Shown here: piece after piece, positions 51,461-64,000 of the stretch | Position numbering within the stretch: position 1 is the stretch's first letter | How the letters are laid out: each line of letters starts with the position of its first letter | Origin: Cyanidioschyzon merolae | Lineage: Eukaryota | Assembly (NCBI GenBank): GCA_000091205.1 | Contig: AP006490.2 | Length of the DNA stretch: 64,000 bases | Strand: one strand, 5' to 3' | Notes under the pieces: generated by a model | What the model saw: only the letters and a program-made list of their open reading frames with translations | Databases searched by the model: none | What the model was told of the DNA's origin: nothing | Translations under genes and position numbers: made by a program

Positions 51461-54400
51461 TTAGCTTCGACGAGCCGGCAAGGATACAAGACGTACAGGA
51501 GCGGCTCCAGAATCAGCCGGCTGCATATTCGTATCCAGTGCAAAGCGCGGCCTACTTTCGGACGATTTCCCCCCGATGTCAACATAGGGTGTCGAGTCGG
51601 GCCTCAGGGAGTCTAACGTTTGCTGCGACCGGGTTAGCTGACGCGACGTCGAGCTGCTGCTGTGGTCTGCGGCGGCCACTTGGGAAACATCCCCGTTTCG
51701 CGAAGAAGCGGCACGCTCCGTTATCGGATGTAAGGGCAGATCTGTGCTCGCTTCCTCTTCCGCAAGTCGTTTCCATTCATTTGCAAACTTACGACATATC
51801 TTCCCAAAAAGCGCGAGCAACTGAGCACTTTCAACCTGCATTTCTGCCCCGAGCTCTTCGAGTGGACGGCGCTGGAGTCCCACACCAACCAGGATAGCCT
51901 GCTGCGCCGGCGACAGCGTAATCCGCTCTGCAGCAAAATGGCCTTCAAAGTACAGACGACTCAGCACCGGAATGATATCCAAAATCACGTGATAGTCCAG
52001 CAGATGGTTTGCATACGCTTGCAAACGCCGCAAGTCGTGCATGGAAAGTAGCAAGCGAAGTTGTGCCGCGTTCCACAGACTGGCGTCGGGCGGTGCAGCT
52101 CGCAAGACGTCCAGCACGAGACCCAAGGGTAACGAGCGAAAGTCGTATGAGAGCAGCGACAGAAACCGTGCTCGCCAGTCCAAGTGCAGGGCCCTAAATC
52201 CCTGTTCATGGGCCTGCTTCAAACTCCGAAGCATGATGCAGGTATGCTCCGCAGTGACCTCATTCGGGGTAAGTCGCACGTAGACTGGCAGCATACCGAT
52301 GCGATTCCAGAATCGATACAGTCCGTGTGAGAGACCGAACGAAACCCCCAGATAGTCCAGATCCGGAACCCTCTGTTCACTCAGTCTGTAAAGCAACGGC
52401 TCCGGTACCGTGTCGTCATTGATGCTTCCCACAGACAGATCGGGTTGTGCATCATCGGTTTCTCGCAGAGTCTTTCGTTCATGCTGCTGCACACCGGAGG
52501 CCACTCGACGGCGGAAATGTTCCACGAGGCACTCCATGGCGCGGGTGCCGTAGCCCATACCTTGCACATCAGGATGCGTAGCAATGCGGATGACCCGAGC
52601 ACCTGCCAGTTGAGCAAAGGCTGTCTCCTGGAACTGTTGCGTTAGCGTCCACGGAATGAGGTCCCCAGCAGCTCGCTTCCCTCGCGACAACTGAGACTCG
52701 GTGTGTTCACGCGAGAGGCGCCCCTCGAGTCCTAGCTGAATGGCGCACAGCACATCCGGTAGTCGTTTTGGATCAGAGGAAGTTGGCCCCAGCAGCACAT
52801 ACAGCTGCTGGTTCGATGCATCGCTCAGCATCTGAAGATCATTGGGGGTGTTCTTATAGTGCGAGGACACAAAAAGCGCCATTACCCGACGGAGGAAAAT
52901 TTCCGCTAGGGCGTGTCCACTGAAAAGAACGTCGCGATTGACTTGGCATAGCGTGCACATGGAAGGGTGCGGAAGCGCACGTGTCTGCAACGCTGGCGCT
53001 TCTGTCGTCTCCAGGCAGAGGAGCGCGTGAAGCCACGCCTCCACCGGATCGTTGCGAGCGTAGCGGATGGGCTCCTCGAGAACAAGCTCGTGGAAGCGTC
53101 GACCATATTGCCGGGTGCTGGAGTCACAGCCGTGCTCTACTGGCGGCTCGATGCCGCCATTTGGGGTATGCGACACATCTTCCGGCATTGGGGGTGGCAC
53201 AAGCCTACTTTCTGCCGCCACTGAAGTGTTTTGTTGAACATGGCGGCGAGCCTGCGCGATCAGCTTGAGGGAGAGACTACGGCCGGTTCCTTCGTAACCG
53301 AAGATCGTCGACGATAGGAAGACGTGACACGATTTGCTGGGCAGAAGTGAGAGTATTCGTTTCACAAGTACCAGCGGTATAGCGGCTGCTTCATCAATAA
53401 TGACGAGGTCAGCGCTTACGAGGGCACCAATGGTGGCGGCATCCACCCGCCGGATAGCCTCTGGCTCAAGGTACGAGACCTGACGCACCCGCCGCCCAAG
53501 CATAGAGAGCTTGCTTATGCAGCGATCGTGTCGGGATTCTAGCACATAGTCCGTATGTTCTTGTAACTTGAGCTCATTCAGGCCTGACACTAAGAGTGAA
53601 AATAGAGTCTGGACGTTGTCCGCTGCGGGCGCTGTCACCACAATGGACGTGTAGCCGAGCGCAAGCGCCGCAGCCGCCGCTAGCCCCAGCGCCGCAGATT
53701 TGCCCCTGCCACGAGCTGCTGTCAAGACCACCATGGACGCTGCAAGCGCAGCCGGAGTTGTTGTATCGACGTTGCGGGCCAGCAGGGCATGAAGCGTCTC
53801 CAGGACACGAGCCTGGTCGAGCGTGCGGGTGCGACGCAGCAGCGGCCCTAGCACTTGCAGGTCTGCACGGGATGACCATAAGATTTCGAGCTGCTTTTGG
53901 CGAAACTCCGCTTCCGAAGTGACGTTGGAGTCGCCCACGGTGCCGCCAACTTCCGGAGGCGAACGAACATGAATCCGGGGAATAGAAGCGAGATCTTGCG
54001 CCCTGGAGCTATCATCTGCATTTGCAGCCTGAGGTATCGAATATGCTGACGAGCAGCTCGCACCACCAACGGCAGGAAGCACATTGAGTTCATCATCTAC
54101 TGCAAGCGCCATAGGGCAGGTCTCGAGGCTGAGGACGAGTCGCCGATTAAATCGTGGTACTATATCCGGGCACGATTCCGTGCGATAGTGGGCGTGTACG
54201 TCCATTTTCAGCGTGTACAGCTGCCGCAAACTCTCCATGTTATGCAAGAGGAACAATACCAAACCGCCTCCCTGCACAGTCTCGATCGTGCGTGCAAGAA
54301 GGTTCGGTGTAAGGGCTCCAAAGTCCTGTAGAACAAGGAGACCATAAGTGTTCCCAAGCACCTTTTCGGATTCAGAGTAGTACGAGAAGCGGATGTTAGC

Positions 54401-54700
54401 TGTCGAGACGAATAGTTCAAAAAGGTCTTCGGTTTTGGCGTCCACAGAGACTCCACCGTGTCGCAGCTTTTTGCGGAGTTGTCGCAGGCGTTTGCGGCGG
54501 TGCGACGAAAAACCCAGTTCCTTCTTATACATCCAAAGGACATCTGGCCGCGGCCTCGTTCCGATCCGAGTAAGTAAGTGGTAAAAGAAAGGGACCTGAT
54601 CTTTGGCGTGATCACCAACAACAAAGAAAAGCGCGCGGGTGTGTGTCTCGTAGGCGCGAACGAGCAGCTGCCGTACGCGTTCATCAACACGCTTCTTCAT
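51461..54700 (-). CDS. NAT10: RNA cytidine acetyltransferase NAT10/Kre33
   Basis: The N-terminus MKKRVDERVRQLL...RALFFVVGD aligns with human MHRKKVDNRIRILIENGV...RSLFVVVGD. A helicase-like Walker A motif and GNAT and tRNA-binding regions are present in a single 1079-aa ORF. The ATG is at 54698-54700. Confidence 0.9.
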   Translation of the reverse strand: MKKRVDERVRQLLVRAYETHTRALFFVVGDHAKDQVPFFYHLLTRIGTRPRPDVLWMYKKELGFSSHRRKRLRQLRKKLRHGGVSVDAKTEDLFELFVSTANIRFSYYSESEKVLGNTYGLLVLQDFGALTPNLLARTIETVQGGGLVLFLLHNMESLRQLYTLKMDVHAHYRTESCPDIVPRFNRRLVLSLETCPMALAVDDELNVLPAVGGASCSSAYSIPQAANADDSSRAQDLASIPRIHVRSPPEVGGTVGDSNVTSEAEFRQKQLEILWSSRADLQVLGPLLRRTRTLDQARVLETLHALLARNVDTTTPAALAASMVVLTAARGRGKSAALGLAAAAALALGYTSIVVTAPAADNVQTLFSLLVSGLNELKLQEHTDYVLESRHDRCISKLSMLGRRVRQVSYLEPEAIRRVDAATIGALVSADLVIIDEAAAIPLVLVKRILSLLPSKSCHVFLSSTIFGYEGTGRSLSLKLIAQARRHVQQNTSVAAESRLVPPPMPEDVSHTPNGGIEPPVEHGCDSSTRQYGRRFHELVLEEPIRYARNDPVEAWLHALLCLETTEAPALQTRALPHPSMCTLCQVNRDVLFSGHALAEIFLRRVMALFVSSHYKNTPNDLQMLSDASNQQLYVLLGPTSSDPKRLPDVLCAIQLGLEGRLSREHTESQLSRGKRAAGDLIPWTLTQQFQETAFAQLAGARVIRIATHPDVQGMGYGTRAMECLVEHFRRRVASGVQQHERKTLRETDDAQPDLSVGSINDDTVPEPLLYRLSEQRVPDLDYLGVSFGLSHGLYRFWNRIGMLPVYVRLTPNEVTAEHTCIMLRSLKQAHEQGFRALHLDWRARFLSLLSYDFRSLPLGLVLDVLRAAPPDASLWNAAQLRLLLSMHDLRRLQAYANHLLDYHVILDIIPVLSRLYFEGHFAAERITLSPAQQAILVGVGLQRRPLEELGAEMQVESAQLLALFGKICRKFANEWKRLAEEEASTDLPLHPITERAASSRNGDVSQVAAADHSSSSTSRQLTRSQQTLDSLRPDSTPYVDIGGKSSESRPRFALDTNMQPADSGAAPVRLVSLPARRS

Positions 54701-58540: not shown

Positions 58541-59616
58541 ATGCAAGCTCTTTTCGTTTCTGTTCCGCTGTACCAGGAAAGACATATTGTTTGCGCGCGC
58601 GCTGCAACCCGAGCACCGTTCCTGCTGCGTACGCATCGTGACGGTTACTTCGCAGCTGTACATCGTCACCATTGCCAGCATCCGCTGCCCTTCGTGGTGC
58701 AGCGTTCGCCTGCGGTGCGCAGGCATCGTATGCCGCATCTTCGTATGGGTCCGAAGCAGTCGCAGATCGCCGTCATCACTGGCGCGTCCTCTGGGGTCGG
58801 TCTGTATGCAGCTCCCGCTCTGATCAACAAGGGCAACTGGCACATCGTCATGGCATTTCGTGACATCGACCTCGTGGAGCGCGCAGCAAACAGCGTAAAC
58901 CTTCTAAAGGACGCCTATACCGTGCTGCATTGTGTTATGGCTGATTTCGCCTCTGTGTTGAAGTTTGTGAGAGAGCTGTCAAGTGTGGCGCGCGTCGATC
59001 ACCTGGATACCCTGATCTGCAATGCCGCAATCTGGCATCCGCCGGACAAGAAACGGCGTTTCACGGTGGACGGCATCGAGGAAACCATGCAGGTATGCCA
59101 TCTGAGCCATTTGCTTCTATGTCGGGAGCTGTTGCCGAAGCTGAAAATATCGCGCAGGCGCATTGTGTTTCTGACGACTCAGACACACTCGCCGAATTCG
59201 CTACCGGGAAAGATCCCCCGCAGGCTCGTCTCGGGGATTCGTCTAGTCTAGCCGCGGGGCTTGGTCCGCAGACGACAGGCATGGTAGAAAGTGGTCCGTT
59301 TGAGCCCACAAAAGCCTACAAAGACGCCAAAGCCGCGAACGTGTTATCAATGAAGGCGCTCGGTCATTGATACGGCCGCGACGGTGTGACCTCTGTGACG
59401 ATTTTCCCGGGATGTGTCGCCAACAGCAACCTCTTCCGCGAAAAGCGTGGCTGGTTCCGCTACATATTCTTCCCGATTCATCAGAAGTACATCACTCGGC
59501 AATACGTTCCCAATGATGAGGCCGGACGCCGTGAAGCCGAAGTGGCGACCCAGGGACAGTTCTCGGACTCGGGCTCGTATTATCAGTGGCGTGGCAAATA
59601 TACGTATGGGGGATAG
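58541..59616 (+). pseudogene. Light-dependent protochlorophyllide oxidoreductase (LPOR)-like SDR with a presequence; disrupted by a 1-bp frameshift and an in-frame TGA
   Basis: VITGASSGVGLYAAPALINKGNWHIVMAFRD aligns with Arabidopsis PORA [45 protein letters not shown] aligns with KAYKDSKVCNMLTM. PGCVANSNLFREKRGWFRYIFFPIHQKYITRQYVPNDEAGRR aligns with [41 protein letters not shown]. The frame shifts from 2 to 1 at the A3/C5 run gggaaagatccccc near 59205-59220. The stop at 59368-59370 (cat TGA tac) aligns with a conserved Arg, so it is a CGA>TGA change. Confidence 0.6.
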
Positions 59617-60279
59617 AAGTCCGAACCGCACGTTATTGAACCAACGTACGAAATCGACAAGGCAGATCAGCTTTACGAACTGAGTCTTGATCTGATCGAC
59701 CAGGCGTTACGGAGGCGAGGCCTCAAGTCGACTATCTTGGCCCCTGTCTAAGGTTTGTTAGTGGTGAATATGGGATGCGCCTTCGAAGCGCAGACCGCTG
59801 CGTCGAGGACGCATGTGGGAGCAACAGCGTAACGATGAAACGGCACCCCACTGTCACGATCGGATAGTGATCGGGTGAAAGGGCACTCCTCCTGATGTGG
59901 TGAGCCAAAATTGCTTCGCAAGTCATAAAGCGTACTGCAGTAGTGATTAATATAGCTATAGCTATGAGCTATTTCGCATCGAATGCGCCAGAGACTGCCA
60001 ACTGTGGTCGTTCAAGAGGGCAGAGCGTGTTTATTTGGGTAATCTGTAACTCTTTTTGCCATAAAGGATACGGCAATAGAAGCGCACTTGCAGACGTTTG
60101 AAAAATCTGTGGGTATTCGATATCAAAGTGGGTCAACGGGCGTGGATTAATGAAAGCTCGGCAGTGAATGCTCCAGCAAGATATGGTGCATTGAACGAAT
60201 CCGACCCAAGGATTGTACCAGGCGCTAGCTATGGGTCAGCATTCTGGAACAACATTGAGACTAATCCGATCATATTTGG

Positions 60280-61410
60280 TTGATTTGGATGTTCAAACAC
60301 GCTTGCAGTGACTTTCTCAATGATGTGTTTGCATTGAGGAAAGCATTCCCTACTCCAACACCAAAAACTTCGCGGACGCCTACCACCATCTGCTCCAATG
60401 AGCTCTGCGGATCTCCAGGACAGTGCATCAACCAGGACGCTTACGAGCAAGTCGGGTGCTGCTTCAACTCCCAGACGAACGCGTGCACCCTGAAGAGCGT
60501 CTCAGCGGCCTGCAGCGCTGTTCCAGTGACGCAGCGCGTCCCCTGCGGCTGGAGCTACATCTACCCTGACGATTGCACTGCGATACCGGGATGCTGCTGG
60601 CAGCCAACAGCGAACGGCATCCTCGCGCCCTGGTGCTACTACGACATCAACCATGCACCCCAGGCTTCTGTAGCGTTGCAGGAGGTGCAGGCACCGGTTC
60701 CCCTCTGCCCGTCACCGGGAGCGCAGCGCCAGCCGTGCGGCAACGCGGGTATCAACCAGTTTACCTGCTATGCCCAGGGCTGCTGCTACGACTCGCAGGC
60801 GCAGAACCAGTGGGTGCAGAACGGCAAGCAGCAGTGCGACTTTGCGTCGAACCCGTACTGCTTCCAGCCCGAGAAGACGTGCGCGGTGGGTGAGTTTGAG
60901 CGCCAGCCGTGCACGAACGCGGTGAATCACAACCAGCAGCTGACCAATAACATCAACAACAACCAGTTTGTGCGTCTGCTGAACACGCTTCTGTACGGGG
61001 AGCAGCACGGGACGCAGCGCACGAGCTACGCGCCGCAGCAGTGCCTGGAGGCGGGTTGCTGCCTGGGGCTTTGCAACGAGTGCTGCCAGCCGGTTACTGA
61101 GAACGTGTGCCAGACCTACGGGTACGTCTCGAACTCGCTGAGCGGCACGACCGGCAACGTATCGAACTCGAGCTATATTCCGTGTGGCCCGGAGTGCTGC
61201 AACGCCGAGATAGAGAACTGTACGTACAACCCGTTCAGCAACAGCAATAACCTGCGACAACAGCAGCAGCAGCAACAGGTGCTGTTGCCGTCATTCTGTG
61301 TATGCAAGGACCCTACAAAGCAGTGCGGGACGTACCTGATCGCTTCGGATAACCTTGTGAACAAGGTGCGTTGTTGCCGCTCTGGCGAGGAGTGCATCAA
61401 CAACGAGTGA
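60280..61410 (+). CDS. Cys-rich protein with tandem trefoil (P-type) domains and a Q/N-rich, Cys-rich C-terminal half
   Basis: CSAVPVTQRVPCGWSYIYPDDCTAIPGCCWQPTANGILAPWCYYD fits the trefoil consensus C-x(n)-R-x2-CG-x(n)-C-x(n)-GCC[FW]-x(n)-PWC[FY]. A second domain (CPSPGAQRQPCGNAGINQFTCYAQGCCYD...) and a partial first domain are also present. The track start is TTG, and the first ATG, at 60289, gives MFKHACSDF..., which has no signal peptide. A missing upstream exon is possible. Confidence 0.6.
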   Translation: MIWMFKHACSDFLNDVFALRKAFPTPTPKTSRTPTTICSNELCGSPGQCINQDAYEQVGCCFNSQTNACTLKSVSAACSAVPVTQRVPCGWSYIYPDDCTAIPGCCWQPTANGILAPWCYYDINHAPQASVALQEVQAPVPLCPSPGAQRQPCGNAGINQFTCYAQGCCYDSQAQNQWVQNGKQQCDFASNPYCFQPEKTCAVGEFERQPCTNAVNHNQQLTNNINNNQFVRLLNTLLYGEQHGTQRTSYAPQQCLEAGCCLGLCNECCQPVTENVCQTYGYVSNSLSGTTGNVSNSSYIPCGPECCNAEIENCTYNPFSNSNNLRQQQQQQQVLLPSFCVCKDPTKQCGTYLIASDNLVNKVRCCRSGEECINNE

Positions 61411-62208
61411 TTGTAGATTAGTCCCACACCGACTCCGAGTGCCATTATTGCGACTGCAACTGCGTCTCCAAGTGCGTCATATTGGTGTCGACCACAACGC
61501 ATGCCTCAGCAAGTGGTTCAGTATGAACCACTGCGTTGACGCCAGCTATCTGTACAGCCCCGCGCGCGACCATAGAACTAAGAATATGTTTCAGTTATTG
61601 ATATATTCATTCCATGAGGATCTTAGTTGTGCAATATAGTTCGCACATGCATGCACGCAACCTTCCAGTCCGGGTTGGCGGCCCATCATCCAATGTTGAG
61701 GGTGTCTGGACACCAAACTTCCCCCTAGACGGGATGCCAACAAATATGCAGATGGCGTGCAGAAAGAGGGAGTTTTTCGTATTGCGTCATAGCGGGCCGG
61801 GTCCGAATGTGCGACGGGCATGCTATTAGACCTTTTGGGTGTTTGGACTCTGCATGTGTATCTGAAACACGACTGCGGCGTAGAATGTTAACTTGCATTG
61901 CCATTACGAGAACGCCTTCATGAAACTAGATAGCAGACGCTGCAAAATATCTTTGTCCGTTTATTATAGAAATGTCCTGTTGTGGGAGCGCCGTGCGCAG
62001 ATCTGCGTCATTCAGAAGGCGGTGCTTGACGCGCTTCCGTGCTGCTTACCTCAGAATACTTCGTTGAGCCTGGTGGTGGTAAGGACGGAGACAGCAGTGA
62101 CAACAGTACCAGCAGCTGGAGTCTCTCCTATCCCTGGAGATTCTAAGCAACTTGTTTCTCTCAGTGGCGCTTTCTTTTCACTGGTGCAGAACCTCTTTCG
62201 TATCCCAT

Positions 62209-64000
62209 ATGCGAAGAAGATATTTTTCTATATTGAGACTCCTGGTGGTAGTATTGGTTGTGTCGGGCACACACACAGTTCGTGGAGTTTTGTCCTCCGA
62301 AGATACTTTTTTATGGACCTGGATCGGTGGTAGTAACTCTACCAGCAGTTCAGGTAGCTACGGTGTTCAGGGTGTGCCAAACACCAGCAACGTGCCTCCG
62401 GCGCGGTACGGTGCGGCCTTCTGGACCGGCGCTGACGGGGTGCTCTGGTTGTTTGGTGGTGGCAGCGACTTGAGAGACGTCTTCGGTGATCTCTGGAACT
62501 ACAATCTAAGCACGTTCTCTTGGACCTGGGTTGGAGGCTCTGCATCCCTCAACTCTGGAGGGGTATACGGCTCCCGCGGAGTTCCCAACAAGAGCAACTA
62601 TCCGCCTTCGAGGACGGAATCCGCTGCTTGGAGTGACAGCAACGGAAACCTTTGGTTATATGGAGGCCATAATTTGAACTCGGGCTATAGTGATATGTGG
62701 ATGTATAATGTATCGTCGGGCGAGTGGACATGGGAGCAGGGATCCAACAAGACCAATGTTCCCCCGACATATGGTACTCTTGGGAACTCGTCTTCAAGCA
62801 ACACGCCTGGCGCTCGTTTCCAACCCGCGACCTGGGTTGGCCTAGATGGCCAGTTTTATCTCTTTGCCGGATCTAGTCCTAATGGTACGTATTACGGTGA
62901 CTTGTGGCAGTACAACACAGTGACCAACGAATGGAGCTGGATAGGTGGCACTCAACAGCAGATTCCCTCTGGAAGCTATGGTGCGTTTCGCCAGGCATCG
63001 CCGAGCAATTATCCCGCTGGACGTCTCGGAGCCACATCGTGGCGAGACCTTGATGGGAACTTTTGGCTCTTTAGCGGTTACGGACAGATTGACGGAAATG
63101 GCGGCTCTCTGAATGATTTATGGCTGTACAATGTCAGCTCCAAAGAATGGACTTGGATGTCTGGAAATGACAGTGTTGGTTCGGATGGGGCAGTATACGG
63201 CGAGAAAGGAGTGCCGTCATCGAGCAACACTCCGGGGTACAGGTCCTCTTCCTCTGGATTTGTAGACTCGTCAAACACTCTGTATCTCTTCGGTGGTTAT
63301 TCACCCGGTTTCTGCAACGACCTGTGGACGTTCAATACTACGAGTCTTGAATGGACTTGGGTAGACGGTGACAATACAACGGATGGAGCCTATAGCTACG
63401 GCGAGCTTAACAAGACAAGCAATACAACGCTTCCACCTCCGCGAGCTTATGCAGTTCTTTGGAATACCGATCAAAACGACCCGGTCCTGTTCGGAGGCGT
63501 AGGCAACTCAGGTTCCCTTAACGACCTCTTCACATTATACATCGCAACACCGACGCCTACACCGACACCAACACCGACACCAACACCGACACCAACACCA
63601 ACACCAACACCGACGGCATCACCGACGCCCTCCGTTACTGCACCCCCGTCGGCAACGACAAATGTGACGCAGACCGCTGTAGGCGAAGGCTCTGCGGTCT
63701 GCTTCCCCGCGGATGCCCCGGTGCTGATCGATGGTCTGGGCAACCATCTGCAGATAAGCGAGCTTCGATCAGGTATGGCCGTAATGGGCGTCAATGGGCG
63801 CGGGCAACTGGTCGAAGATAGTGTACTAGGATGGTTGCATAACGAGGCCGGCGCTACTGCGGAGATTCTGGCGATCAAGACGCTTTCCGGAAAGCAGCTG
63901 CGTCTGACGAGACAGCATCTGGTATATCGAATGATCGAACACTCTAGAGACTTTTACGGTATGACGACCGCTTTCTCGTGTATTTCACAGAAGCAGCAGC
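62209..64000 (+). CDS. Secreted Kelch-repeat beta-propeller, (Thr-Pro)n linker and Hedgehog/intein-type Hint domain protein (Hog-like autoprocessing architecture); the 3' end lies beyond the window
   Basis: The frame opens after a TGA at about 62098-62100, and the first ATG gives the signal-peptide-like MRRRYFSILRLLVVVLVVSGTHTVRG. At least six Kelch-like repeats follow, of the form W[TS]W[IVM]GG...G.YG..G.P....P.R....W.D..G..WLFGG. A TPTPTPTPTPTPTPTPTPTPTASPTP linker comes next. The Hint module CFPADAPVLIDGLGNHLQISELRSGMAVMGVNGRGQLVEDSVLGWLHNEAGATAEILAIKTLSGKQLRLTRQHLVY aligns with Hedgehog [48 protein letters not shown]...LLLTAAHLLF. The ORF has no stop before nt 64000. Confidence 0.75.
   Translation, partial: MRRRYFSILRLLVVVLVVSGTHTVRGVLSSEDTFLWTWIGGSNSTSSSGSYGVQGVPNTSNVPPARYGAAFWTGADGVLWLFGGGSDLRDVFGDLWNYNLSTFSWTWVGGSASLNSGGVYGSRGVPNKSNYPPSRTESAAWSDSNGNLWLYGGHNLNSGYSDMWMYNVSSGEWTWEQGSNKTNVPPTYGTLGNSSSSNTPGARFQPATWVGLDGQFYLFAGSSPNGTYYGDLWQYNTVTNEWSWIGGTQQQIPSGSYGAFRQASPSNYPAGRLGATSWRDLDGNFWLFSGYGQIDGNGGSLNDLWLYNVSSKEWTWMSGNDSVGSDGAVYGEKGVPSSSNTPGYRSSSSGFVDSSNTLYLFGGYSPGFCNDLWTFNTTSLEWTWVDGDNTTDGAYSYGELNKTSNTTLPPPRAYAVLWNTDQNDPVLFGGVGNSGSLNDLFTLYIATPTPTPTPTPTPTPTPTPTPTPTASPTPSVTAPPSATTNVTQTAVGEGSAVCFPADAPVLIDGLGNHLQISELRSGMAVMGVNGRGQLVEDSVLGWLHNEAGATAEILAIKTLSGKQLRLTRQHLVYRMIEHSRDFYGMTTAFSCISQKQQ
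63547..63625 (+). repeat. (ACACCG/ACACCA)n hexanucleotide repeat encoding the (TP)n linker
   Basis: The sequence reads acaccgacaccaacaccgacaccaacaccgacaccaacaccaacaccaacaccgacg. Confidence 0.85.

What the first reader, a model, noticed from the sequence alone, without database searches (positions are those of the whole stretch)
62098..64000. Secreted Kelch-propeller protein fused through a (TP)n linker to a Hedgehog-type Hint autoprocessing domain
The C-terminal part begins with the canonical Cys-Phe-Pro (VCFPADAPV...) and shows Hedgehog-Hint conservation through ...LTRQHLVY. Upstream are at least six Kelch repeats and a signal peptide. Hint modules cleave at the Cys and, in Hedgehog, attach a sterol to the released N-terminal cargo. 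Here the cargo would be an extracellular beta-propeller. Hog-type proteins outside animals are known but uncommon, and the cargo domains are diverse. A Kelch propeller cargo with a Thr/Pro, mucin-like stalk suggests a processed cell-surface or secreted adhesion/lectin-like molecule. The gene runs off the window, so the presence of a sterol-recognition or other C-terminal region is unknown.
Basis: seen in the sequence. Interest (0 to 1): 0.7.

Follow-up and report, generated by a model that had tools for sequence, protein, structure and literature searches.

The report
Known red-alga Kelch–Hog subtelomeric gene

Summary
One open frame runs from ATG 62209 to the window end (597 codons). It encodes a signal peptide, a six-bladed Kelch propeller, a (TP)11-rich linker and the first 100 residues of a Hedgehog-type Hint/Hog domain. 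That domain starts at Cys498-Phe-Pro and has the T-x-x-H motif.

The window is the right end of chromosome 8 of Cyanidioschyzon merolae 10D. By gene order, the gene is CMH283C (BAM79921.1, "similar to hedgehog protein").

The architecture is already published:
- Nozaki 2007 described the subtelomeric P/T/H elements, including end 8R.
- Cho 2023 described Kelch+Hint genes joined by a Thr/Pro/Ala linker, with 11 copies in Cyanidioschyzon.
- A 2026 Plant Cell paper lists this gene as "K+Hog", predicted secreted, and about 70-fold higher in haploid 10D cells than in diploid cells.

Full-length paralogues (88-93% identical) carry the rest of the Hog domain. Its best fold match is Drosophila Hh-C.

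Two details are worth keeping. His replaces the Hedgehog general-base Asp. The Kelch part varies about 2.7 times more among paralogues than the Hint part.

Self-cleavage and any lipid adduct remain untested. Novelty: already known. Interest: low.

The parts
62209..64000 (+). 5' 1.8 kb (aa 1-597 of about 730) of CMH283C, the K+Hog precursor gene. It is a single exon and is cut by the window end.
   Evidence: The ORF is open from ATG 62209. Pfam finds Kelch plus Hint. It is 88.8-92.5% identical to C. merolae 10D paralogues. The gene order CMH278C (exact match) > CMH282C > CMH283C comes from Data Set S8 of PMC13353863.
62209..62286 (+). Signal peptide (aa 1-26): MRRR, a hydrophobic core, then THTVRG.
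   Evidence: The hydropathy peak is 3.3 at aa 8-18. The model predicts a helix at aa 2-19. SignalP-5.0 'SP(Sec/SPI)' is reported for CMH283C. The cleavage site itself is not determined.
62299..63546 (+). Six-bladed Kelch beta-propeller (aa 31-446), the cargo. It carries 14 of the protein's 15 N-x-S/T sequons.
   Evidence: Pfam Kelch families. Six repeat motifs and the sequon count, 15 against 8.4 +/- 2.6 in shuffles. AF2 pLDDT above 90. Foldseek matches to ESP, LZTR1 and Keap1 Kelch domains at E about 1e-15.
63547..63699 (+). Thr/Pro/Ala/Ser-rich linker (aa 447-497). It holds the (TP)11 run at 63547-63612 and ends ...GEGSAV just before the cleavage-site Cys.
   Evidence: Modelled as disordered, pLDDT 28-47. 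Its length varies among paralogues. The family's linker is described in PMC9812998.
63700..64000 (+). N-terminal 100 residues of the Hog (Hint) autoprocessing domain. Cys498 is at 63700-63702, His544 at 63838-63840 (the position of Drosophila Hh Asp303/D46), Thr567 at 63907-63909 and His570 at 63916-63918 (TxxH).
   Evidence: Pfam PF01079 at 47.9 bits. Alignments to Shh and Drosophila Hh-C.
60280..61410 (+). Upstream neighbour CMH282C, a trefoil-factor-like Cys-rich gene (the 'T' of the subtelomeric element). It begins with a PTPTPKTSRTPT linker remnant.
   Evidence: Pfam Trefoil at 49.3 bits, two stretches. Listed as 'similar to trefoil factor, KTH variant T'. The same T-to-H spacing of 799 bp is seen in locus L001.
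60098..60283 (+). Remnant of a Kelch blade in another frame, directly before the trefoil ORF. It looks like a decayed K part of a former K+T gene.
   Evidence: The translation ...NAPARYGA...GASYGSAFW...NPIIFG resembles Kelch blades, and the next frame continues LNDVFAL-PTPTP. There is no Pfam hit, so this is read by eye.
58541..59700 (+). Short-chain-dehydrogenase (protochlorophyllide-reductase-like) sequence broken over three frames. It is probably a pseudogenised 'P' copy of the subtelomeric element.
   Evidence: ORFs at 58541-59251, 59095-59370 and 59386-59616 lie in different frames. Pfam adh_short E=7.4e-15 on the first. No protein is listed between CMH278C and CMH282C, whereas end 7R has an intact POR gene, CMG217C, next to its K+Hog gene.

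Best explanation
The feature is CMH283C. It is the last gene on the right arm of chromosome 8 of Cyanidioschyzon merolae 10D and a member of the subtelomeric 'K+Hog' (Kelch + Hedgehog-type Hog domain) family of Cyanidiales.

Shown:
- A single ORF encodes a signal peptide, a heavily sequon-rich six-bladed Kelch propeller, a disordered (TP)n linker, and a Hint domain. The Hint domain has the nucleophilic Cys498 and the TxxH motif.
- Paralogues supply the second Hint half (YAPLTRSG...VSCYG) and a roughly 65-residue helical tail.
- According to the 2026 Plant Cell data, the gene is transcribed mainly in haploid, wall-less cells.

Inferred by analogy with Hedgehog and other Hog proteins:
- The precursor enters the ER. 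The Hog domain performs an N-to-S acyl shift at Val497|Cys498. The thioester is then resolved by a nucleophile. This releases a glycosylated propeller-plus-stalk of about 470 residues, and the Hog domain is discarded. I rate self-cleavage at about 0.7.
- The nucleophile may be a sterol or another lipid recruited by the helical tail, which would tether the propeller to the outer membrane leaflet. I rate this at about 0.4. It is favoured by the Shh-like tail motif and by a His at the general-base position, a swap shown to keep cholesterolysis in Drosophila Hh-C.

The ligand of the propeller is unknown.
For: Identity:
- Four window ORFs are letter-for-letter C. merolae 10D chromosome 8 proteins: BAM79912, 79913, 79915 and 79919 (= CMH278C).
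- The next listed genes are CMH282C (trefoil) and CMH283C (K+Hog, SP). This matches the Trefoil ORF and the Kelch-Hint ORF in the window.
- Nozaki 2007 places a PH element at end 8R.
- The window's last 3.7 kb is 93.9% identical to a contig in which the homologous gene lies 3.3 kb from AATGGGGGG telomere repeats.

Domains:
- Searches support the domain layout.
- Hog completeness in paralogues: PF01079 at 110 bits over profile positions 10-207 of 213.
- Shh match at E=1.5e-10, with CFP, TxxH, YAPLT..G..SCY and HxxAH..P.R aligned.
- The model's Hint core has block-mean pLDDT of 76-93, and its best PDB fold match is 1at0 Hh-C (TM 0.89, E=5e-12).

Activity is plausible:
- D303H keeps activity and widens sterol tolerance (PMC9163320).
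- C. merolae is predicted to make cycloartenol, from its oxidosqualene cyclase (ERG7) sequence (PMC2817430).

This is not a dead copy:
- It has 5 private substitutions at positions invariant in all other copies, against 0-11 in other copies.
- TPM is 527-629 in 10D.
Against: - No experiment anywhere shows cleavage, an adduct or surface location for any Cyanidiales Hog protein.
- The last roughly 130 codons of this copy are outside the window. Its own second Hint half and tail were therefore not seen.
- BAM79921.1 was not retrievable from the protein collection.
- The canonical general-base Asp is replaced by His.
- The residue before the Cys is Val rather than Gly.
- The C-terminal tail is modelled with low confidence (pLDDT 37-54). 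Its match to the Shh sterol-recognition region is not significant on its own (domain 2).
- The loci carry H3K27me3 and are described as moderately repressed (PMC5405695).
Confidence: 0.8

Rival explanations
1. The Hog domain only cuts. The thioester is hydrolysed, or resolved by a small soluble nucleophile. The Kelch propeller is then released as a soluble secreted glycoprotein with no lipid anchor.
For: - The sterol-transfer Asp is absent (His544).
- The adducts of non-Hedgehog Hog proteins are unknown, and their C-terminal regions differ from the Hedgehog sterol-recognition region (PMC2362128).
- The tail is modelled at low confidence.
- Phobius finds no membrane segment.
Against: - His at this position still supports sterol transfer in Drosophila Hh-C.
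- The tail of about 65 residues is conserved from Cyanidioschyzon to Cyanidiococcus and lines up with GIHWY..LY of animal Hedgehog. Such conservation would be hard to explain if the tail had no role in choosing a nucleophile.
Confidence: 0.3
2. This particular copy is a silenced or decaying subtelomeric pseudogene rather than a working gene.
For: - Its neighbours are decayed: a POR-like sequence broken over three frames and a Kelch remnant before the trefoil ORF.
- Two blades have LFAG and LFSG instead of LFGG.
- The protein was not found in the 5.8-billion-sequence collection.
- Hedgehog-like loci carry H3K27me3.
Against: - 597 codons are open with no stop.
- The number of private substitutions is typical of the family.
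- Kelch dN/dS is below 1 (0.35-0.85).
- It is annotated as BAM79921.1 and has TPM of 527-629 in 10D haploid cells.
Confidence: 0.04
3. The Kelch and Hint parts are separate genes, or are separated by splicing, and the fusion is an artefact of reading one long ORF.
For: None found.
Against: - The frame is continuous through the linker.
- The same fusion occurs in at least seven annotated C. merolae proteins of 724-762 aa, in Cyanidiococcus (747 aa) and on environmental contigs.
- The literature treats K+H as one gene.
Confidence: 0.02

Closest known systems
Cyanidiales subtelomeric KTH family, K+H / K+Hog class (Nozaki 2007 'H' genes; Cho et al. 2023; Plant Cell 2026 Data Set S8)
   Same: It is a member, gene CMH283C. 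It has the same order of signal peptide, Kelch, Thr/Pro linker and Hog. It sits at a chromosome end next to T and P genes. It is 88.8-92.5% identical to the paralogues CMF001C, CMG220C and others, and it shows the same haploid-biased expression.
   Different: Only copy-level differences. The (TP) run is longer, 11 units against 3-7 in the other copies. There are five private substitutions. The adjacent P copy is decayed.
Animal Hedgehog C-terminal autoprocessing domain (Hh-C/Hog; PDB 1at0, 6tyy, 7e2i)
   Same: It has the Cys-Phe start, TxxH and the YAPLT..G..SCY block (in paralogues). It has the Hint fold (TM 0.89 to 1at0) and a helical tail with a GI..Y..LY motif resembling the sterol-recognition region.
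   Different: - The cargo is a Kelch propeller, not the Hedge signalling domain.
- His replaces the general-base Asp303.
- Val rather than Gly precedes the Cys.
- A Gln-rich insertion of about 34 residues follows the TxxH strand.
- Sequence identity is only 23-30%.
- No cleavage or cholesterol transfer has been shown.
Non-Hedgehog Hog proteins of protists, red algae, mosses and nematodes (Burglin 2008)
   Same: It is a secreted precursor with a lineage-specific N-terminal cargo followed by a Hog domain, and its function is unknown.
   Different: Burglin reports that the red-algal and moss Hog domains he sampled have lost the Cys of motif J. The Cyanidioschyzon and Cyanidiococcus proteins keep it (VSCYG). 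C. merolae was not in his sample.
Inteins and bacterial intein-like (BIL) domains
   Same: They share the Hint fold and an N-terminal Cys that makes a thioester (fold matches at E of 1e-8 to 1e-6).
   Different: The paralogues have no C-extein. They end at ...AAC after the helical tail, so no splicing is possible. The Hedgehog-type matches are clearly better.

Membership tests
Hedgehog-type Hint/Hog domain (Pfam PF01079) | Profile match above the curated threshold | tested here: met
   The window fragment scores 47.9 bits against a cut-off of 29.7, over profile positions 10-91 of 213. Paralogue P0001 scores 110 bits over positions 10-207 of 213.
Hedgehog-type Hint/Hog domain (Pfam PF01079) | Nucleophilic Cys at the first position (Cys-Phe) at the cargo/Hint junction | tested here: met
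   Cys498-Phe499-Pro500 aligns to Shh and Drosophila Hh Cys1.
Hedgehog-type Hint/Hog domain (Pfam PF01079) | T-x-x-H motif (Thr69/His72 in Hint numbering) | tested here: met
   Thr567-Arg-Gln-His570 aligns to VTPAH and LTAAH. It is invariant in alignment A1.
Hedgehog-type Hint/Hog domain (Pfam PF01079) | General-base Asp (D46 / Drosophila D303), needed for sterol transfer | tested here: not met
   His544 occupies this column, as it does in all Cyanidioschyzon-type sequences of A1 apart from one Tyr and one Asp. The D303H swap retains activity in Drosophila Hh-C (PMC9163320). This weakens strict equivalence with Hedgehog but does not exclude the mechanism.
Hedgehog-type Hint/Hog domain (Pfam PF01079) | Second Hint half with the conserved YAPLT..G and S-C-Y (Cys143) block | not testable with these tools
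   It lies beyond the window end for this copy. It is present and invariant in paralogues and in Hog-only relatives.
Hedgehog-type Hint/Hog domain (Pfam PF01079) | Hint fold | tested here: met
   Tested on a relative, P0141, which is 95% identical to the P0001 Hog region. The core has block-mean pLDDT of 76-93, and the best PDB match is 1at0 at E=5.3e-12 and TM 0.89. The window's own truncated Hint did not fold confidently.
Hedgehog-type Hint/Hog domain (Pfam PF01079) | Autocatalytic cleavage, and an adduct on the released cargo | not testable with these tools
   No experiment was found in the papers read.
Bona fide Hedgehog protein | N-terminal Hedge signalling domain (PF01085) | tested here: not met
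   There is no PF01085 hit. The N-terminal part is Kelch. The literature reclassifies these proteins as non-Hh Hog proteins.
Kelch beta-propeller | Repeated Kelch motifs forming a closed propeller | tested here: met
   Seven Kelch-type Pfam families are above threshold. There are six repeat units. The model has pLDDT above 90 and matches six-bladed Kelch structures.
Cyanidiales subtelomeric K+Hog family (gene CMH283C) | High identity to annotated paralogues and the same domain order | tested here: met
   88.8-92.5% identity to BAM79404, BAM81404, BAM80407 and BAM82656 (BAM79709 was fetched later and its identity was not computed), with the same order in all.
Cyanidiales subtelomeric K+Hog family (gene CMH283C) | Location at a chromosome end within a P/T/H element | tested here: met
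   The window carries exact chromosome 8 proteins up to CMH278C, followed by P-like, T and H in that order. A homologous contig ends in telomere repeats 3.3 kb after the gene. Nozaki 2007 lists a PH element at 8R. The telomere itself lies outside the window.
Intein | C-terminal Asn and a following extein that is ligated | tested here: not met
   The paralogues end about 230 residues after Cys1 with ...VSV(V/I)xAAC and have no downstream polypeptide.

The most novel reading that the evidence does not exclude
The K+Hog proteins may be sterol- or lipid-tethered, rapidly diversifying surface receptors of the wall-less haploid (gamete-like) cell. In this reading, the Hog domain uses a natural His general base to esterify a red-algal sterol onto a glycosylated Kelch propeller. 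The propeller's variable blade loops would then mediate cell-cell or ligand recognition. The propeller itself may have come from acidophilic bacteria by gene transfer. This would be the first demonstrated Hedgehog-style lipidation outside animals, in a genetically tractable alga.
Probability: 0.12. Interest if true: 0.6.

Novelty: already known. Interest (0 to 1): 0.12.

Why it matters
As a genome-scan finding it adds nothing new. The gene is annotated, and the Kelch-linker-Hint architecture, its copy number, its chromosome-end location, its H3K27me3 marking and its haploid-biased expression have all been published.

Its remaining value is as a test case. No non-animal Hog domain has had its cleavage chemistry or adduct determined. 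C. merolae is transformable, has a tiny genome, and expresses this gene strongly in the haploid cells used in the laboratory.

Three details seen here would help anyone who takes up that experiment:
- the natural His at the general-base position;
- the retained motif-J Cys;
- the contrast between a variable propeller and a conserved Hog domain.

Tried and rejected
1. Extending the window.
- Exact-protein look-ups for two window ORFs and for P0001 found no gene positions.
- A metagenome scan returned only 87-92% identical copies, several of them also cut at contig ends.
- BAM79921.1 is not in the protein collection or in the three 90% clusters I opened.
- The 3' end of this copy therefore had to be inferred from paralogues.

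2. Telomere repeat (AATGGGGGG)2 in the window: none. The window stops short of the telomere.

3. The pseudogene idea was rejected on the private-substitution count, the open frame, and the published expression.

4. The intein reading was rejected because there is no C-extein, and Hedgehog-type matches beat inteins.

5. A functional clue from the propeller fold: only generic Kelch matches (ESP, LZTR1, KLHDC, Keap1), with no specific ligand hint. The label 'N-acetylneuraminic acid mutarotase' on bacterial relatives is an automatic name and was not used.

6. dN/dS in the Hint part rests on 1-3 substitutions per pair and is not informative.

7. A word-indexed search with the Hog region found only 10 relatives. 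I did not survey how common His is at the general-base position.
Full report
**What is in the sequence**

The first ATG is at 62209, and the frame then stays open for 597 codons to the last base of the window.

Pfam finds seven Kelch-type families on this translation. The strongest are PF24681 at E=6.8e-38 and Kelch_4 at 1.3e-33. It also finds the Hint module PF01079 at 47.9 bits, above its curated cut-off of 29.7. The Hint match covers residues 495-577, which is profile positions 10-91 of 213, so the match is simply cut by the window end.

The N-terminus has three basic residues followed by a hydrophobic core (MRRRYFSILRLLVVVLVVSG). There are 15 N-x-S/T sequons, against 8.4 +/- 2.6 in shuffles of the same sequence. 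Six repeat units are marked by the DLW-type motif, and each also has an xWTW motif (five caught by the pattern, the sixth, FSWTW at aa 103-107, read by eye). A run of eleven Thr-Pro pairs occupies residues 447-468. The Hint domain begins at Cys498-Phe-Pro (nt 63700).

An AlphaFold model built on 35 homologues gives pLDDT above 90 for residues 31-445. The linker is modelled as disordered. The best solved-structure matches are all six-bladed Kelch propellers at E of about 1e-15.

**Where it comes from**

Four other ORFs of the window are letter-for-letter identical to proteins of Cyanidioschyzon merolae strain 10D. These are BAM79912 (CMH270C), BAM79913, BAM79915 and BAM79919 (CMH278C). All four lie on the 739,753-bp record, and the CMH locus tags mark it as chromosome 8.

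In the gene list of a 2026 Plant Cell paper, CMH278C is followed by CMH282C ("similar to trefoil factor", KTH variant T). Next comes CMH283C ("similar to hedgehog protein", BAM79921.1, SignalP SP(Sec/SPI), KTH variant K+Hog). After that, chromosome 9 begins.

The window shows exactly this order:
- the CMH278C ORF at 51461-54700;
- a Trefoil-domain ORF at 60280-61410 (Pfam 49.3 bits);
- the Kelch-Hint ORF from 62209.

The finding is therefore CMH283C, the last gene on the right arm of chromosome 8. This identification rests on gene order. I could not retrieve BAM79921.1 itself.

**It is a described family**

- Nozaki et al. 2007 reported homologous elements next to the telomeres of C. merolae. 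These carry genes for trefoil factor (T), protochlorophyllide oxidoreductase (P) and hedgehog protein (H). "PH" elements sit at eight ends, including 8R (PMC1955436).
- Cho et al. 2023 described the most prevalent subtelomeric duplications of Cyanidiales. These are a kelch domain fused with a trefoil domain or a hint domain, [quoted passage not shown]. They counted 11 K+H copies in Cyanidioschyzon and three in Cyanidiococcus (PMC9812998).
- Mikulski et al. 2017 found H3K27me3 on these loci (PMC5405695).
- The 2026 Plant Cell paper, following Burglin 2008, reclassifies them as non-Hedgehog Hog proteins. It counts 17 Hog genes in C. merolae and reports that most are expressed mainly in haploid cells (PMC13353863).
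- For CMH283C itself, TPM is 7-8 in diploid MS1, 45-46 in haploid MS1 Ha3, and 527-629 in haploid 10D.

My own checks agree with this picture:
- The last 6 kb of the window is 92-94% identical at the DNA level to several hot-spring metagenome contigs.
- On one of these contigs (L001), the trefoil gene, the same 799-bp spacer and a complete 729-codon K+Hog gene are followed 3.3 kb later by AATGGGGGG telomere repeats.

**The missing 3' part, judged from paralogues**

The annotated paralogues are 88.8-92.5% identical to the window protein over the shared 575-587 residues. The C. merolae 10D K+Hog proteins retrieved are 724-762 aa long.

In these paralogues PF01079 scores 110 bits over profile positions 10-207 of 213. 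A search of solved structures with the Hog region of P0001 finds human Sonic hedgehog at E=1.5e-10. The aligned features are the Cys-Phe-Pro start, LTRQHL against LTAAHL, YAPLTRSGRLAVDGVLVSCY against [20 protein letters not shown], and HAVAHAVLWPARV against HSWAHRAFAPFRL.

A model of a Hog-only relative (P0141, 95% identical to the P0001 Hog region) has a Hint core with block-mean pLDDT of 76-93. Its best fold match is the Drosophila Hh-C fragment 1at0 (E=5e-12, TM 0.89). Inteins and BIL domains score worse.

After the Hint core come about 65 residues, modelled as helices at low confidence. They contain GIMPYAERLYHIW, which lines up with GIHWYSQLLYQIG in the Shh sterol-recognition region. On its own this match is not significant. 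The proteins end there, so no splicing to a C-extein is possible.

Neither is met.

**Departures from Hedgehog**

- The cargo is Kelch, not the Hedge domain.
- The column of the general-base Asp (Drosophila D303, D46 in Hint numbering) holds His544. The other Cyanidioschyzon-type sequences also have His there, apart from one Tyr and one Asp.
- The engineered D303H swap keeps both structure and cholesterolysis, and it widens sterol tolerance (Zhao et al. 2019, as reviewed in PMC9163320). PDB entry 6tyy is that mutant. The His is therefore compatible with transfer chemistry, but it is a real difference.
- Val, not Gly, precedes the Cys.
- A Gln-rich stretch of about 34 residues, modelled with low confidence, follows the TxxH strand.
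- Burglin noted that the red-algal and moss Hog domains he sampled had lost the Cys of motif J. These proteins keep it (VSCYG).

**How it most likely works**

Shown: the domain order, the catalytic residues present in the window, the complete Hog domain in close paralogues, and transcription in haploid cells (from the literature).

Inferred: the precursor enters the secretory pathway. The Hog domain converts the Val497-Cys498 peptide bond to a thioester. A nucleophile resolves the thioester, freeing the glycosylated propeller on its Thr/Pro stalk. I put self-cleavage at about 0.7.

Whether the nucleophile is a sterol or other lipid, which would give a membrane tether, or water, which would give a soluble protein, is open. 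I put lipid transfer at about 0.4. My reasons are the conserved tail and the fact that C. merolae is predicted, from its oxidosqualene cyclase sequence, to make sterols by the cycloartenol route (PMC2817430). No experiment on any Cyanidiales Hog protein was found.

**Is this copy alive?**

Its neighbours are decayed. The P-like sequence at 58541-59700 is broken over three frames. A Kelch-blade remnant at 60098-60283 sits out of frame before the trefoil ORF.

The K+Hog ORF itself looks healthy:
- It has five private substitutions at positions invariant in all other copies, against 0-11 in the other copies.
- It has no stop in 597 codons.
- Kelch dN/dS against environmental copies is 0.35-0.85.
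- Published expression is strong.

**Extra observations**

Among the six 10D copies compared, 24.6% of Kelch positions vary, against 9% of Hint positions. The variation is concentrated just after the LFGG motif of blades 3 and 4.

Outside Cyanidiales, the closest relatives of the propeller are proteins of Acidobacteriaceae/Terracidiphilus and Promethearchaeota genomes, at 36-43% identity across all six blades. No named eukaryote other than Cyanidioschyzon and Cyanidiococcus appears in the top 120 hits. This hints at a bacterial origin of the cargo, but I built no tree.

**Verdict**

The feature is an annotated member of a published gene family in a model organism. Novelty: already known. Interest: low. 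What remains open is the biochemistry, not the existence or the architecture.

Noticed in passing
window 62299-63546 (Kelch part); loci L081-L115: The nearest non-Cyanidiales relatives of the propeller are Acidobacteriaceae/Terracidiphilus and Promethearchaeota proteins, at 36-43% identity over all six blades. No named eukaryote other than Cyanidioschyzon and Cyanidiococcus is among the top 120 database hits. This may mean the cargo domain was acquired by horizontal transfer. I built no phylogeny, and the papers read do not mention such a transfer.
   Followed up: partly
window 58541-59700: A short-chain dehydrogenase (protochlorophyllide-reductase-like) sequence is split over three reading frames, and no protein is listed here in the 10D gene table. 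It looks like a pseudogenised 'P' copy of the subtelomeric PH element. The 7R end keeps an intact POR gene (CMG217C).
   Followed up: partly
window 60098-60283 and 60280-61410: The trefoil gene CMH282C is preceded, in another frame, by a Kelch-blade remnant, and its ORF opens with LNDVFAL-PTPTPKTSRTPT. It therefore appears to be a former K+T gene that lost its propeller. It is listed as variant 'T' with no signal peptide.
   Followed up: partly
window 62209-64000 compared with paralogues P0001, P0122, P0003, P0124, P0213: Variable sites are 2.7 times denser in the Kelch part (24.6%) than in the Hint part (9%). They cluster after the LFGG motif of blades 3 and 4. Synonymous divergence is also lower in the Hint part, which may reflect gene conversion among chromosome ends.
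   Followed up: partly
window 63838-63840 (His544): A natural His sits at the Hedgehog general-base position. In the small alignment made here, a beetle Hedgehog sequence (P0148) also has His, while two other hedgehog-like sequences have Asp. I did not survey how common His is across Hog domains.
   Followed up: no
L002 (Ga0078972_1002626) and L005 (Ga0080006_1190176): Two long metagenome contigs (58 kb and 46 kb) end inside their K+Hog gene, just as the window does. This is consistent with assemblies breaking in this multi-copy subtelomeric repeat.
   Followed up: no
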